Shown: positions 25,805 to 36,770, numbered from the stretch's first letter. The stretch is 64,000 nt of DNA from Escherichia phage vB_EcoP-CHD5UKE1 (NC_070989.1); one strand, 5' to 3'. Translations and numbers: made by a program. The notes: generated by a model from the sequence alone, not told the origin.

Positions 25805-27649
25805 TTAGTGTGTATGCATCCAGTTAAGTCCAATCTGACAATCAGATGCCAGAGGACATTCCATATTCAGATACTCGCCAGCTTTCTTAACACAAAGCTC
25901 GGTGTGCTCTTTGAGTTTCTGTACATCATTACGGTTTACTGAGAATTGACCTTCATCGTGCATATCAATTACCTTAGCACAATGAACCTTATCTTTCTCA
26001 ATCCACTTGTTAAGGAACATCATAGCATATTTCATAACAACAGCACCAGCACATTGCAGGAGTGTGTTAAGGGCTTTATGAACCATAACCTTACCAGTGG
26101 CATCCCGTCTCATTGTAATCTTACGACCATCAACTCCAATCAAGTATCCTTGAGCAGCTTTCTCTGTCATACGATCAATGAGGATTGCAATACATGGATT
26201 CTCTGCCAAGAAACGTGCTCGCATCACTGAACCTTCGTCAGCCCCACCACCTACAATTGAACCAAGCTTAGCGTCGCCAGCGCCATAGTTAAATGCATAG
26301 ATAAACGTCTTAGCGTTGTCACGAGTAGGAAGACCAGCAAGTTTCTGGTTGTGGGAGTGGATATCACCTTCAAGGAGAATATCACGATACATAATAGCAG
26401 AAGCTAAACCACGTTCTGCCAGAGCTTTCTTAGCTGGGTTGTTCTCTTCGATTGCCTCAGCAAGCATATCCCTACACTCTTTAATGAGGTAGTGAGCGAG
26501 CATACGAAGTTCAAGTCCAGAACCATCATACCCTAAGAATACTTCTTTACCAGCGGGTATGTAATATTTGTAAGCGCCTACAGGTTTGTCTTTCTTCCCC
26601 GGCTTACCTTTCTCGTAAATTACGTTAGTACCTTTTCGTATATAACAACCATCAGGAACAACGTTAGTAATAACGAAAGGACGAGAGTGATCACTGTCTG
26701 AGTTATAGTCAGACTCAAACAAACTGCGACACTCGTGACCAAACAGACCACGGGAGGGAATATTAACCACGATACGATGTTTGAATCGAAAAGTCGGCGT
26801 AGCGCAGCTGTTAGCTTCTGCCGAAAGTTTACCATCTTCGCGTTCCTTTGCTATGAGTCCACTGATAAGACCTAGCCTGTGAGCCGCTACAACGCGTCTC
26901 TTAAGCAAACTTCCGACACTCCCTAGCTCACCCCCTAACCCTTCTTCAAGAGTCTCCTCGAGGTTTGTAGGAGCTGTAGGCCACTTGTTTGATGTGGCTA
27001 GTGCTTTCTTAATCTCATCAAACGTTACAGGATTACGGCGATTAGGGTTCAACCCCAAACCAAATACGTAAGCCTTCATGTAATTCTTAGTCTTAAACCT
27101 GAAATGCTTTTCTAAGAACTTCTTAATATCAGCGTCAACCATCTCGGCTGTCTGCTTCTGCTTAGCATTGCCTCGCATCCAAGCAGTATACCATGCTTGG
27201 TATGTTCCATACTTTCTCATATCTTTCTTAATTTCGAAAGTATTCCAAGGCTTCTTAGATACGTTAAACTCTGGAGGAAGAAAGCCCTCATCCATAAGAG
27301 CTTCTTTAACTCGTGCATCTTTCGATGGGTCAAAGTCTACGTATTCGACACAGGTGAAAGCTCCACCAATATCTTCTCTCTTCAGCCCAACCCTATCACA
27401 ATAGGCTTGAGGCCACTTCTGTAAAGCTCCAGACTTCTTAAATGGCTTCATGTAAGTAGAGCCATCTAATCTCATCTTAGGTAAGAGAGGAATCAACTCT
27501 CTGTCAATATTAACAATAATCTCTTTAAGGAGGTGAACATACCACCGAGCATTTCTTCGGTTGAAACTCACTCCGTGCTTTGCTTGCTTAGAGATTATAT
27601 CAGCGACAGTCATCTCTGTCAAAAATGGAAGAGCGTCCGGGTTGCTCAC
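25805..27649 (-). CDS. DNA polymerase, family A polymerase domain (palm/fingers/thumb) without exonuclease domain
   Basis: Motif A YDGSGLELRMLAHY, motif B RDNAKTFIYAFNYGAG, motif C VIDMHDEGQF; no DEDD exonuclease motifs in this 614-aa ORF. Confidence 0.9.
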   Translation of the reverse strand: MSNPDALPFLTEMTVADIISKQAKHGVSFNRRNARWYVHLLKEIIVNIDRELIPLLPKMRLDGSTYMKPFKKSGALQKWPQAYCDRVGLKREDIGGAFTCVEYVDFDPSKDARVKEALMDEGFLPPEFNVSKKPWNTFEIKKDMRKYGTYQAWYTAWMRGNAKQKQTAEMVDADIKKFLEKHFRFKTKNYMKAYVFGLGLNPNRRNPVTFDEIKKALATSNKWPTAPTNLEETLEEGLGGELGSVGSLLKRRVVAAHRLGLISGLIAKEREDGKLSAEANSCATPTFRFKHRIVVNIPSRGLFGHECRSLFESDYNSDSDHSRPFVITNVVPDGCYIRKGTNVIYEKGKPGKKDKPVGAYKYYIPAGKEVFLGYDGSGLELRMLAHYLIKECRDMLAEAIEENNPAKKALAERGLASAIMYRDILLEGDIHSHNQKLAGLPTRDNAKTFIYAFNYGAGDAKLGSIVGGGADEGSVMRARFLAENPCIAILIDRMTEKAAQGYLIGVDGRKITMRRDATGKVMVHKALNTLLQCAGAVVMKYAMMFLNKWIEKDKVHCAKVIDMHDEGQFSVNRNDVQKLKEHTELCVKKAGEYLNMECPLASDCQIGLNWMHTH

Positions 27650-27665
27650 TTTATACTCCTTTAAA

Positions 27666-28088
27666 TTATTGGTAAAGTAAATCTGTAAATGCTTGGTTAT
27701 CTTCTACTACATTCAACATGGTAGCTTCATCACTATAAGCCCTAACCGTCCCGTTGACAACTGTCCAAGGAGGAGGTGGAGGTGGTGTATGGTTAGCCCT
27801 AGCTTCACGAGGTTGCTCTCGTACTAAATGAGCCACAACCCTTTGGTTAGCGACTTCTTCTCTTTCTCTAATAGCTCTCTGGATATAGGCCAGCTTCATG
27901 CCCCAAGCTTCTTCAAACTCTTGAGGATGCTTATCACTGATAACCACATACTGACGTTCAGAAATACCAGAGCGAATCTCTGATAATAATTCATGGAACA
28001 AATCTAGTTCGTGCTCAGTGAGATTCATTTCAATATCATCCCACTTTAGAACTAGGAAACGGTTTTGGTGTCTAGCTGGTAATGGCAT
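27666..28088 (-). CDS. hypothetical protein (140 aa) with poly-Pro stretch
   Basis: ORF-track ORF; contains PPPPPP. Confidence 0.5.
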   Translation of the reverse strand: MPLPARHQNRFLVLKWDDIEMNLTEHELDLFHELLSEIRSGISERQYVVISDKHPQEFEEAWGMKLAYIQRAIREREEVANQRVVAHLVREQPREARANHTPPPPPPWTVVNGTVRAYSDEATMLNVVEDNQAFTDLLYQ

Positions 28089-28091
28089 AAC

Positions 28092-34840: not shown

Positions 34841-34849
34841 TCTTATTCC

Positions 34850-36211
34850 TTAGTTATTTGTTTCCATGTCAAAAGAGATTCCACGACCCGCTTCATCGGC
34901 AAACCGAACTGTTCGGGTTTGAGGTTCTAATACTTCAGGGTTGTTAGCAACAAACCGATCAGCGAGACTACGACTGACAGTCTCAGCTAATTCACCATGA
35001 GAAGGGATATCAAGACTACCTACCACATCTTGGGCCACACCTTCATCAGTCCACACAGCCCTAACAGGTGCGTTGATATCACCAACAGCAAAACCCTGAC
35101 CAGAGAACTGACGTGCGCTAACAGTTAAACCGTTTGGTCGACCACGAGAAGGTCTAGCCATCCATCGCTCCATAGAATCACTTGTAATACCAAGAGCTTC
35201 TTCAAAAGATGTTCTACGAGTAGGGCTTACTCTTCGTGACTCTTGTGCTCGACGCATTGCAGGGGCTACAAACACCCCTTCAATTGCATTGTGTCGGTTA
35301 GGTTCCTCTTCTCGACCAAGCAGATCACCACCCGTGTTAGTCGTTAAATTTGTCAACCCCTCAGACCAATACGCATGAATCTGACCAGAACCGTGAAGAC
35401 TAGACATAATCTGAATCTCTTCATAAGGGATTCCAAAGAATCGACTCATGTCTCGGTTGACACAATATAGAGCACTTGTTGTATCTTCAATAAGAGAAAC
35501 CTGACCTAATCCATTGACTAGATGACTAACTGGCTGAGGTGTGGGAAGATATCGAGTTTGGGCCATGTATTGATGTGCAACTGCTGGAGAGGAAAATCTC
35601 AACACTTGTGAGTTAGGCCACTTCTTGTGAACATACCTGATTTCACGACTAGAGACAACCACTGGACAAGGGGAAGTCATAGCCAAATATCCGTGAGAAG
35701 TCATGAATAAGTTGTCAAGAGTCATCGCACCACGGCACATCATGGGAAAATTATCCAATACCTCTTCAATAGAAGTAGGATAATTAAACATGAATTGGAT
35801 ACGAACCCCATTCCACTGAAACTCAATAATATCAGTGAATGTTAATTGAGAACCCCCAGCATAGGATTCGTTTGTAGCTTCAGCAAGAAGTGATGCATAT
35901 TCAATATCTTGTGACTCTAGCCATTCCTTCACATTACTTTCAATCTCCCGTCCAAGCTCTTGCCAACGATCAGTTGGGATGAAAGTGTTTTGAGTTCTTG
36001 GTGTTTGTCCTCTGACAATAAAGATATCAATGTCATGTGGAGCTATGTTATTAAGGACAGCATCACGAACAGCCCCACCAGTAATGATGGGACAGATACC
36101 ATCTGGAATCAAGTTGTTATTAATCAACTGTTCAATGAAGTGACGACCAACAGTGATATCAGGTTGTTGAGCAACCTTATCTTCAATTTGGTTAATCGGG
36201 ATAACAATCAT
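34850..36211 (-). CDS. polymerase-beta-type nucleotidyltransferase (CCA-adding enzyme/poly(A) polymerase head-domain-like)
   Basis: ITGGAVRDAVLNNIAPHDIDIFI matches the GG-x-VRD...DxD nucleotidyltransferase motif of tRNA nucleotidyltransferases; start set at ATG 36211. Confidence 0.55.
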   Translation of the reverse strand: MIVIPINQIEDKVAQQPDITVGRHFIEQLINNNLIPDGICPIITGGAVRDAVLNNIAPHDIDIFIVRGQTPRTQNTFIPTDRWQELGREIESNVKEWLESQDIEYASLLAEATNESYAGGSQLTFTDIIEFQWNGVRIQFMFNYPTSIEEVLDNFPMMCRGAMTLDNLFMTSHGYLAMTSPCPVVVSSREIRYVHKKWPNSQVLRFSSPAVAHQYMAQTRYLPTPQPVSHLVNGLGQVSLIEDTTSALYCVNRDMSRFFGIPYEEIQIMSSLHGSGQIHAYWSEGLTNLTTNTGGDLLGREEEPNRHNAIEGVFVAPAMRRAQESRRVSPTRRTSFEEALGITSDSMERWMARPSRGRPNGLTVSARQFSGQGFAVGDINAPVRAVWTDEGVAQDVVGSLDIPSHGELAETVSRSLADRFVANNPEVLEPQTRTVRFADEAGRGISFDMETNN

Positions 36212-36212
36212 T

Positions 36213-36770
36213 TTACATTTTCCAATATAATGAAGGTGGGTCGTAAGGGTCAAATCCCGTGAGTTCACACAAGAAAAGATAAACCTTAACAGTTAAGTTA
36301 ACGTCCTGTTCACAATAAGTAAACATATCTTCAGTGAAAGCATCCCATGCTTCCTCTTGCTCACCATAATCGCCCTTAAGCTCTCCTAAGAACTCACCCC
36401 ACTGCTTCAAACCATGACCTCTTGGGCCACGTCTAGGGTCGCCTTTCGGATACTCAGGACTGTCACCAATACGGTCAGGTTTAAGATATCGACTAAGACA
36501 TAAAGTGTCAAAGACGTTAAAATTATATTTAATCAAAGAGGGATACATCTTTTTCAGAGCAGGTAAGTCGAAGTCAATAATATTATGACCCACTAGTACA
36601 TCTGCTTCTGTAAGTTTACGAATCCCATCTTCAATTTGGTGAGGCCGATAGCCCCACCTTTCACCAGTTTCAACATCAAAGATATAAATACACCATACTT
36701 TAGTTATGTCATCGTACAGTGCATTACTCTCGATATCGAATGCAAACACTTTCTTCTTTTTCTTTACCAC
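36213..36770 (-). CDS. 3'-5' exonuclease (DnaQ-like DEDDy), separate polypeptide corresponding to the Pol A proofreading domain
   Basis: Exo I FAFDIES, Exo [12 protein letters not shown], Exo III YCEQDV; 185 aa, ends 1 nt before the next gene. Confidence 0.8.

What the first reader, a model, noticed from the sequence alone, without database searches (positions are those of the whole stretch)
25805..36770. Family-A DNA polymerase encoded as two separate genes 8.5 kb apart (exonuclease 36213..36770, polymerase 25805..27649) with a nucleotidyltransferase immediately after the exonuclease
Exo I/II/III motifs are all in a 185-aa ORF that ends with a stop, while motifs A/B/C are in a 614-aa ORF that lacks any DEDD motif. 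Between them lie about 20 genes, including dCTP deaminase, Dps-like, ThyX and PhoH. The gene abutting the exonuclease (34850..36211) has a GGAVRD...DIDIF polymerase-beta nucleotidyltransferase head motif like CCA-adding enzymes. A split replicase implies a two-subunit proofreading polymerase assembled in trans, which is uncommon for T7-type systems.
Basis: partly seen in the sequence, partly recalled or inferred. Interest (0 to 1): 0.55.

Follow-up and report, generated by a model that had tools for sequence, protein, structure and literature searches.

The report
Known split T7-like phage DNA polymerase
This E. coli phage (a phiEco32/SU10-type Kuravirus) encodes the proofreading and the polymerising halves of a T7-like DNA polymerase as two genes 8.5 kb apart; this is real, but it is already annotated and published for this phage group.

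Summary
The window is a Kuravirus; its pol gene is 99.9% identical to Escherichia phage Bas91 and 98.9% to SU10.

- **Exo ORF (36213..36770, minus strand, 185 aa):** an intact DEDDy exonuclease. Its only solved relatives are the N-terminal exo domain of T7 gp5.
- **Pol ORF (25805..27649, minus strand, 614 aa):** carries motifs A, B and C and matches T7 gp5 residues ~295-704. It holds no exonuclease remnant.
- **The split:** joined end to end, the two ORFs align collinearly with T7 gp5 and with single-chain relatives. The break falls in the exo/pol linker.
- **Between them:** 23 ORFs, including dCTP deaminase, a ferritin/Dps-like protein, thioredoxin, ThyX and PhoH.
- **Conservation:** the order helicase, exo, variable cargo (1.4 to more than 10 kb), pol recurs in LUZ24-like, Crifsvirus and metagenomic relatives.
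- **Prior knowledge:** RefSeq already calls the phiEco32 and SU10 gene "DNA polymerase exonuclease subunit". Papers from 2012 and 2023 state the split explicitly.
- **Adjacent nucleotidyltransferase:** it has a class II CCA-adding/poly(A)-polymerase-like head domain and belongs to a tiny, fast-evolving family. It is absent from more distant split-polymerase phages, so it is not an obligatory partner.

Assembly of the two halves in trans is inferred, not shown. Verdict: real, correctly read, already known, low interest.

The parts
36764..38554 (-). T7 gp4-like primase/helicase. Its stop codon overlaps the exo start codon.
   Evidence: Pfam DnaB_C E 1e-10 and a weak Toprim_2 hit. The overlap is visible in the sequence. 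Helicase-then-exo adjacency is conserved in all relatives examined.
36213..36770 (-). 3'-5' proofreading exonuclease subunit (DEDDy), equivalent to the N-terminal domain of T7 gp5.
   Evidence: PF01612 E 1.3e-8. T7 gp5 residues 3-178, E 1.5e-12. phrog_403 'DNA polymerase exonuclease subunit' E 2e-38, and phrog_17 positions 667-826. Exo I, II and III conserved.
34850..36211 (-). Nucleotidyltransferase. The head domain resembles class II CCA-adding enzymes and poly(A) polymerase; the C-terminal ~200 aa are variable.
34307..34840 (-). dCTP deaminase; first cargo gene after the nucleotidyltransferase.
   Evidence: PF22769 E 3.5e-34.
33619..33690 (-). Intergenic promoter region between exo and pol: TTTACT-16-TATGAT followed by AAATGTATATA, the motif read by the phage sigma factor (gp36 type).
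   Evidence: The SU10 paper places a promoter with this motif upstream of the homologous CDS68.
32733..33332 (-). Ferritin/Dps-like DNA-binding protein.
   Evidence: PF00210 E 2.8e-7; phrog_3636.
32698..32726 (-). Terminator-like hairpin (11-bp stem) just after the Dps-like gene.
   Evidence: This is a consensus scan only.
32209..32484 (-). Phage thioredoxin with a CAPC active site. Others have proposed it as a processivity factor.
   Evidence: PF00085 E 3.5e-13. Sequence. Hypothesis stated in PMC7881722.
31537..32193 (-). ThyX thymidylate synthase.
   Evidence: PF02511 E 1.4e-43.
29436..30179 (-). PhoH-like ATPase.
   Evidence: PF02562 E 4e-56.
29055..29063 (-). Exact TAATGTATA motif (phage sigma factor promoter type) upstream of pol.
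   Evidence: The SU10 paper reports a middle promoter between CDS56 and CDS57.
25805..27649 (-). Polymerase subunit: thumb, palm and fingers of a T7-like family A polymerase, with no exonuclease domain.
   Evidence: PF00476 E 3e-23. T7 gp5, E 6e-33. AF2 pLDDT 89. Foldseek top hit T7 DNA polymerase 1sl1_A, E 9e-26. Collinear alignment.
18064..18906 (-). Separately encoded 5'-3' exonuclease-like gene, the counterpart of T7 gp6.
   Evidence: PF02739 E 5.8e-7, below the gathering score. PMC9965538 describes the homologue as a separate 5'-3' exonuclease.

Best explanation
The two ORFs are the two halves of one T7 gp5-type family A replicative DNA polymerase whose gene was broken at the exo/pol interdomain linker. 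The N-terminal half kept its place directly after the primase/helicase gene, with overlapping stop and start codons. The C-terminal half was displaced downstream as genes accumulated in the break. Most of these genes serve nucleotide metabolism.

Shown here: homology, collinearity, intact catalytic motifs in both halves, and conservation of the arrangement.

Inferred: the 185-aa exonuclease and the 614-aa polymerase associate non-covalently into a proofreading holoenzyme, as the two domains do within T7 gp5. Also inferred is partly separate transcription, because pol lies downstream of two promoter motifs of the phage sigma factor type that do not serve exo.

The nucleotidyltransferase next to exo is a lineage-specific passenger with a class II CCA/poly(A)-polymerase-like catalytic head. 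It is not a conserved component of the polymerase.
For: - T7 gp5 is the best solved-structure relative of both ORFs: exo 10-160 matches gp5 3-178, and pol 63-614 matches gp5 295-704.
- The Foldseek top hits of the pol model are all T7 DNA polymerase.
- The exo+pol concatenate aligns collinearly with T7 gp5 and with ~600-aa single-chain relatives. The break sits at about gp5 residues 190-210.
- On the phrog_17 profile the two ORFs cover consecutive positions, 667-826 and 836-1233.
- DEDDy residues and motifs A, B and C are conserved in the window and in LUZ24-like 'part I / part II'.
- The order helicase, exo, gap, pol recurs with gaps of 1.44, 1.66, 3.2, 7.7, 8.56 and more than 10 kb.
- All 96 pol-only relatives share a 78-131-aa insert that all 6 single-chain relatives lack.
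- Existing annotation and papers say the same thing.
- AlphaFold modelling by others of an independently split T7-like polymerase (S-SBP1) reproduces the unsplit fold.
- The nucleotidyltransferase is absent from A24, the LUZ24-like phage, L011 and L012.
Against: - No physical or biochemical evidence for the complex exists here or in the papers read.
- I could not model the heterodimer.
- Exo was not among the SU10 proteins detected by mass spectrometry, whereas pol, thioredoxin and the nucleotidyltransferase were.
- The number of fission events is unresolved. Two neighbour-joining trees disagree on where the single-chain relatives sit.
- The temporal class of exo is uncertain. The SU10 paper puts CDS69-125 in the early class, but the 7-11 paper calls gp79, which lies upstream of the helicase, a middle gene.
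Confidence: 0.85

Rival explanations
1. The exo ORF descends from a PolA proofreading domain but now works on its own. It might act with the primase/helicase to which it is translationally coupled, or with the neighbouring nucleotidyltransferase as an RNA/tRNA 3'-end trimming and rebuilding pair. In this reading the polymerase runs without proofreading.
For: - Exo is always glued to the helicase gene, never to pol.
- PF01612 also covers RNase D-type enzymes (established knowledge of that Pfam family).
- In Kuravirus-type phages exo is always followed by a class II CCA/poly(A)-polymerase-like nucleotidyltransferase, even when that protein is only 32-39% identical.
- Promoter motifs separate exo from pol.
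Against: - The closest homologues are polymerase exo domains, not RNases.
- Exo is present in every split-polymerase lineage examined, including those without the nucleotidyltransferase.
- PolA polymerase domains are reported to need the exo domain for stability (PMC10201439 discussion).
- Helicase-then-polymerase gene order is the T7 order anyway.
Confidence: 0.1
2. The split is only apparent. It could be a sequencing or assembly error, a pseudogene, or two parts joined during expression by a frameshift, an intron or an intein.
For: - Related phages do carry a group I intron in the pol gene, although at motif B rather than at the exo/pol boundary.
- One cyanophage record suggests translation of its polymerase in two frames (H28).
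Against: - 8.56 kb holding 23 ORFs with their own functions lie between the halves.
- The arrangement is conserved in more than 100 independent genomes.
- Both ORFs have their own Shine-Dalgarno sequence and start codon.
- No slippery site precedes the helicase stop codon.
- Rfam finds no intron anywhere in the window.
Confidence: 0.01
3. Exo and pol were acquired independently from different sources rather than arising by fission of one gene.
For: One neighbour-joining tree nests the single-chain relatives among the pol-only sequences, which leaves the history unclear.
Against: - Both halves have the same nearest solved relative (T7 gp5), and the same nearest single-chain relatives align to both halves.
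- The gene order matches the domain order.
- The break falls exactly at the linker, with no missing or duplicated segment.
Confidence: 0.04

Closest known systems
phiEco32 / SU10 / YF01 (Kuravirus, Gordonclarkvirinae): phi32_74 'DNA polymerase exonuclease subunit' plus phi32_53 'DNA polymerase'
   Same: It is the same genes. The window pol is 98.9% identical in nucleotides to SU10 and 99.9% to Bas91. Gene order and spacing match. [quoted passage not shown]
   Different: Only strain-level differences. One is about 0.5 kb of different small ORFs between ThyX and the ligase-Ia-domain gene, compared with Bas91.
LUZ24 / PaP3 / tf group (Bruynoghevirus): 'DNA polymerase part I / part II'
   Same: - The same break point.
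- The same order: helicase, exo, gap, pol.
- The same upstream cluster of amidoligase, GlmS-like amidotransferase, ATP-grasp and gamma-glutamyl cyclotransferase genes.
- Shared polymerase insertions.
- The split is described in PMC3517423.
   Different: The gap is only 1.66 kb and holds six small ORFs. There is no nucleotidyltransferase and no nucleotide-metabolism cargo. Pol identity is about 39-42%.
S-SBP1-like T7-like cyanophage split PolA (Czernecki et al. 2023, PMC10201439)
   Same: A T7-like PolA split into exo and pol genes at the interdomain boundary, with a shortened thioredoxin-binding region. The complex is predicted, not measured.
   Different: There the genes are adjacent and overlapping, and arose from a recent +1 frameshift. 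Here the halves are 8.5 kb apart, the split spans several phage groups, and the polymerase carries extra insertions.
T7 gp5 with E. coli thioredoxin
   Same: Best structural and sequence relative of both halves. The catalytic motifs are shared, including Tyr at the third conserved position of motif B. The helicase-then-polymerase gene order is shared, and the primase/helicase has an acidic C-terminal tail ending in an aromatic residue.
   Different: - T7 gp5 is a single chain.
- The thioredoxin-binding loop region here is about 20 residues shorter.
- The phage carries its own thioredoxin.
- Three insertions add about 45-85, 45 and 25 aa relative to T7 and the single-chain relatives.
Class II tRNA nucleotidyltransferases / bacterial poly(A) polymerase (for the adjacent ORF)
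   Same: The head-domain fold and the GGxVRD...DxD catalytic motif.
   Different: - Below the Pfam threshold.
- No body or tail domain.
- No EDxxR nucleotide-selection motif seen.
- Variable, probably disordered C-terminus.
- The family is confined to about 30 clusters, and the members whose genomic context was examined are all phage-borne.

Membership tests
Family A DNA polymerase, T7-like subfamily | Motifs A (DxxxLExR), B (RxxxKxxxFxxxYG) and C (HDE) with the catalytic carboxylates | tested here: met
   DGSGLELR, RDNAKTFIYAFNYG and MHDEG align with the T7 gp5 motifs. PF00476 scores 82.7 bits against a cutoff of 34.3.
Family A DNA polymerase, T7-like subfamily | The fold superposes on T7 gp5 better than on Pol I-type enzymes | tested here: met
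   Foldseek ranks 1-27 are all T7 DNA polymerase (E 9e-26 to 1e-19). Bst and Taq enzymes come in at about 1e-15. The model has pLDDT 89.
Family A DNA polymerase, T7-like subfamily | A 3'-5' exonuclease domain on the same polypeptide | tested here: not met
   The pol ORF begins after the linker and has no PF01612 hit. The domain is supplied by a separate gene.
Family A DNA polymerase, T7-like subfamily | A thioredoxin-binding insertion at the thumb tip that binds thioredoxin | tested here: inconclusive
   In the pairwise-anchored alignment the T7 loop stretch before the conserved FTCVEYV / YTPVEHV block is about 62 aa and the window's is about 43 aa. A phage thioredoxin is encoded. Binding could not be modelled.
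DEDDy 3'-5' exonuclease of PolA type (PF01612) | Exo I DxE, Exo II Nx2-3(F/Y)D and Exo III Yx3D, all present | tested here: met
   FDIES, HNIIDFD and YCEQD align with the T7 gp5 motif blocks DIEAN, HNGHKYD and YNVQD. PF01612 scores 35.3 bits against a cutoff of 23.6.
DEDDy 3'-5' exonuclease of PolA type (PF01612) | Nearest relatives are polymerase proofreading domains rather than DnaQ, RNase T or RNase D | tested here: met
   The only PDB hits are T7 gp5. The phage hits listed lie under DNA polymerase or 'part I / exonuclease subunit' genes. The NCBIfam PolC hit is negligible.
Split exo/pol PolA (two-gene polymerase) | Two separate ORFs that together cover a full-length PolA without overlap or loss, broken at the interdomain linker | tested here: met
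   Collinear alignment. Consecutive positions on the phrog_17 profile.
Split exo/pol PolA (two-gene polymerase) | The two products form a stable complex with proofreading activity | not testable with these tools
   No multimer prediction or biochemistry was available. It has only been predicted, for S-SBP1, by others.
Class II CCA-adding enzyme / poly(A) polymerase (PF01743) | Head domain with GGxVRD...DxD and the pol-beta-type nucleotidyltransferase fold | tested here: met
Class II CCA-adding enzyme / poly(A) polymerase (PF01743) | Passes the curated family threshold | tested here: not met
   18.7 bits against a cutoff of 23. Two homologues score 20.1 and 21.9 bits. No NCBIfam hit and no PDB sequence hit.
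Class II CCA-adding enzyme / poly(A) polymerase (PF01743) | Neck motif D (EDxxR) for nucleotide selection, and body/tail domains for tRNA binding | tested here: not met

The most novel reading that the evidence does not exclude
Two linked ideas remain open. First, the 78-131-aa helical insert in the polymerase (pol residues ~125-250) may be a newly evolved docking surface that replaced the covalent exo/pol link. It is present in all 96 pol-only relatives sampled and absent from all 6 single-chain relatives and from T7. Second, the exonuclease may be delivered to the replisome by the helicase, because its gene is translationally coupled to the primase/helicase gene and lies upstream of the promoter motifs that serve pol. 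It could then have a role before the polymerase appears, or independent of it. A further option is an RNA 3'-end role together with the neighbouring CCA/poly(A)-polymerase-like nucleotidyltransferase.
Probability: 0.15. Interest if true: 0.45.

Novelty: already known. Interest (0 to 1): 0.15.

Why it matters
If the two products do assemble, this phage group is a natural, widespread example of a family A polymerase that works as a two-subunit enzyme. It would be a useful system for asking why proofreading and synthesis are usually fused, and whether the break lets the two be expressed at different times or in different amounts.

That idea is already in the literature for these phages and for cyanophages, so this window adds no new kind of system. 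The minor additions made here are:
- the exact break point relative to T7 gp5;
- the perfect correlation, in this sample, between the split and one polymerase insertion;
- the growth series of the cargo gap, from 1.4 to more than 10 kb;
- the fold-level identity of the neighbouring nucleotidyltransferase.

Tried and rejected
- **Vestigial exo fold in pol:** rejected. The pol N-terminus aligns after the linker, and the extra length is explained by insertions.
- **Helicase-exo fusion by -1 frameshift:** no slippery heptamer precedes the helicase stop codon.
- **Intron or intein joining the halves:** Rfam finds only one tRNA in the window. The group I intron found in relatives sits at motif B, not at the exo/pol boundary.
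- **Nucleotidyltransferase as a defence or anti-defence family member:** no PADLOC hit. There was also no PDB sequence hit and no NCBIfam hit.
- **Nucleotidyltransferase needed to add CCA to the phage tRNA:** the tRNA-Arg(TCT) gene already encodes CCA.
- **Single versus multiple fission events:** two neighbour-joining trees gave conflicting placements of the single-chain relatives, and I did not extract bootstrap values. Left unresolved. The shared insertion favours one event.
- **Reading Savalia et al. 2008 directly:** the paper is not held. Its content is cited only through PMC3517423 and the RefSeq notes.
- **Modelling the exo-pol or pol-thioredoxin complex:** not possible.

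
Full report
**What the window is.** The 614-aa ORF is 99.9% identical in nucleotides to the DNA polymerase gene of Escherichia phage LorandFenyves_Bas91. It is 98.9-99.3% identical to those of YF01 and SU10. In all, 118 phage records match, almost all from Escherichia, Salmonella or Shigella phages. The window is therefore a phiEco32/SU10-type podophage (Kuravirus, Gordonclarkvirinae). From about 18 kb to the window's end the GC skew is negative, and the examined genes from about 18 to 38.6 kb lie on the minus strand.

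**Checking the observation.** The three ORFs exist as described.

The exonuclease ORF is 36213..36770 on the minus strand.
- It starts at a GTG with a GGAG 7 nt upstream.
- Its start overlaps the TGGTAA end of the primase/helicase gene 36764..38554.
- It carries Exo I (FDIES), Exo II (HNIIDFD) and Exo III (YCEQD).
- It passes the Pfam PF01612 threshold.

The polymerase ORF is 25805..27649 on the minus strand.
- It starts at a GTG behind an AGGAG.
- It carries motifs A, B and C.
- It matches PF00476 over residues 361-611, with no exonuclease hit.

The 8,563 nt between them hold 23 minus-strand ORFs. These include dCTP deaminase, a ferritin/Dps-like protein, a thioredoxin with a CAPC site, ThyX, PhoH and a stand-alone NAD-ligase Ia domain. 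The ORF abutting exo, 34850..36211, has GGAVRD...DIDIF.

**Are these two halves of one polymerase?** Four lines of evidence say yes.
- Against all PDB sequences, the exonuclease ORF hits only T7 gp5: residues 10-160 against gp5 3-178, E 1.5e-12.
- T7 gp5 is also the best hit for the polymerase ORF: 63-614 against gp5 295-704, E 6e-33.
- On the PHROG profile of single-chain phage polymerases (phrog_17), exo covers positions 667-826 and pol covers 836-1233. These are consecutive and do not overlap.
- A virtual exo+pol concatenate aligns collinearly with T7 gp5 and with six ~600-aa single-chain relatives that are about 43% identical. The break falls in the interdomain linker, at about gp5 residues 190-210, and nothing is lost or duplicated.

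An AlphaFold model of the pol ORF (pLDDT 89, pTM 0.74) has T7 DNA polymerase as its 27 best Foldseek matches in the PDB.

The pol ORF contains no exonuclease remnant. Its extra length comes from three insertions:
- a helical insert at pol residues ~125-250;
- a beta-rich insert before motif A;
- a helix after motif A.

**Distribution.** The relatives of the exonuclease listed in the phage collection lie under genes annotated as DNA polymerase, or as 'DNA polymerase part I' or 'exonuclease subunit'. The same architecture recurs widely. The primase/helicase gene is followed by exo, usually with overlapping stop and start codons. A variable block of genes comes next, and then pol.

| Source | Gap between exo and pol |
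|---|---|
| Metagenomic relative L012 | 1.44 kb |
| Bruynoghevirus 'otherone' | 1.66 kb |
| Metagenomic relative L011 | 3.2 kb |
| Cronobacter phage A24 | 7.7 kb |
| This window | 8.56 kb |
| Metagenomic relative L005 | more than 10 kb |

A single-chain relative (L013) has helicase, a ligase fragment and then the fused polymerase.

The 102 near-full-length relatives comprise 96 pol-only and 6 single-chain proteins. All 96 pol-only proteins carry 78-131 residues in the 125-250 segment. The six single-chain ones carry 30-36, and T7 carries 51. This rare shared feature favours a single fission event. However, two quick neighbour-joining trees disagreed on whether the single-chain forms are sister to the pol-only set or nested within it. 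I leave the number of events open.

**Expression.** This part is inference. The 72-nt intergenic gap 33619..33690 lies between exo and pol. It contains a sigma-70-like promoter followed by AAATGTATATA, the element read by the phage's own sigma factor. An exact TAATGTATA also lies at 29055..29063. Two long-stem terminator-like hairpins sit at 32726..32698 and 28697..28674. No such promoter motif occurs on the minus strand between 33658 and 56449. Pol therefore has promoters that exo does not share.

The SU10 paper assigns CDS25-68, which include pol, thioredoxin and the Dps-like protein, to the middle class. It assigns CDS69-125, which include exo, the nucleotidyltransferase and the helicase, to the early class, by homology to phiEco32. 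The 7-11 paper, however, calls gp79 a middle gene, and gp79 lies upstream of the helicase. The temporal class of exo is therefore not settled.

**The nucleotidyltransferase.**
- Its Pfam match to the poly(A)-polymerase/CCA head domain is below threshold, at 18.7 against 23 bits.
- An exhaustive search of 1.84 billion representative proteins found only about 30 related clusters.
- Across these, GG..RD and DxD are invariant. The conserved core ends near residue 210-260 and is followed by tails of variable length and sequence.
- Members only 32-39% identical still sit between exo and dCTP deaminase.
- The gene is absent from A24, the LUZ24-like phage, L011 and L012.

It is thus a lineage-specific neighbour, not a conserved partner of the split polymerase. 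Its substrate is unknown. The phage tRNA-Arg already encodes CCA.

**Comparison with what is known.**
- RefSeq annotates phiEco32 phi32_53 as 'DNA polymerase; lacks 5'-3' and 3'-5' exonuclease domains' and phi32_74 as 'DNA polymerase exonuclease subunit'. SU10 and Bas91 are annotated likewise.
- PMC3517423 (2012) states that polymerase and proofreading exonuclease are separate genes in all LUZ24-group phages, and that the same organisation was reported for phiEco32.
- PMC9965538 (2023) states that the separation is common to all Kuravirus-like phages and to 7-11, Privateer, Vp_R1 and BUCT695.
- PMC10201439 (2023) describes an independent, recent split in S-SBP1-like cyanophages. It predicts that the two products reassemble into the unsplit fold.
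- PMC7881722 proposes the phage thioredoxin as a processivity factor.
- The SU10 paper already described the nucleotidyltransferase as carrying a class II CCA-adding enzyme domain.

**Verdict.** The finding is real and was correctly interpreted from sequence alone, but it is already known for exactly this phage group. What remains untested anywhere I could read is the physical association of the two products and any functional consequence of separating them. Interest is low (0.15).

Noticed in passing
window 27594..27622 (minus strand), inside the 5' end of the pol ORF: A perfect sigma-70 consensus, TTGACA-17 nt-TATAAT with the extended -10 TG, lies within codons 10-19 of pol (FLTEMTVADII). 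It uses the ATA Ile codon. About 0.005 perfect matches are expected by chance in the 14.5 kb scanned (my estimate, 29,000 positions x 3 spacer lengths / 4^12). Bas91 has the identical sequence. A relative about 88% identical keeps the -10 element, while its -35 is weaker. More distant relatives lack the site. A transcript starting here would lack the pol start codon.
   Followed up: partly
L006 5354..5617 (metagenomic Kuravirus relative): A group I intron (RF00028, 102 bits, E 3e-27) interrupts the pol gene at motif B, giving a 454-aa and a 139-aa ORF. This explains the ~450-aa 'truncated' polymerases seen among relatives, such as P0014-17 and Aeromonas phage BUCT695. The window's pol gene is uninterrupted.
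   Followed up: yes
window 30348..30677 (minus strand): A 109-aa protein consisting only of the NAD+-binding Ia domain of NAD-dependent DNA ligase (PF22745, E 7e-35). Relatives annotate it as 'DNA ligase', although it lacks the adenylation and OB domains.
   Followed up: no
window 34850..35430 (minus strand), C-terminal ~200 aa of the nucleotidyltransferase: The C-terminal half evolves much faster than its neighbours and looks low in complexity. Against phiEco32 the whole protein is 86% identical at the protein level. Across family members the tail varies in length, giving proteins of 274-482 aa in total, and does not align.
   Followed up: partly
window 25805..27649, pol residues ~125-250: A helical insert of 78-131 aa is present in every pol-only relative sampled (96 of 96). 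It is absent from every single-chain relative (6 of 6) and from T7. This is a perfect correlation with the gene split, and its structural meaning is unknown.
   Followed up: partly
window 52835..52910 (minus strand): A single tRNA-Arg (anticodon TCT) with an encoded 3' CCA. It is the only Rfam hit in the window.
   Followed up: yes
window about 38.6 kb onward (minus strand); seen in L001, L002, L003, L010, L012: Upstream of the primase/helicase, Kuravirus, Crifsvirus and LUZ24-like phages share a conserved cluster: amidoligase, GlmS-like glutamine amidotransferase, ATP-grasp ligase and gamma-glutamyl cyclotransferase. This points to a conserved small-molecule or peptide-modification pathway linked to the replication module.
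   Followed up: no
window about 30677..31570 (minus strand): The exo-pol interval is about 0.5 kb longer here than in Bas91. The small ORFs between ThyX and the ligase-Ia gene differ between the two, so this is a variable spot inside the cargo block.
   Followed up: no
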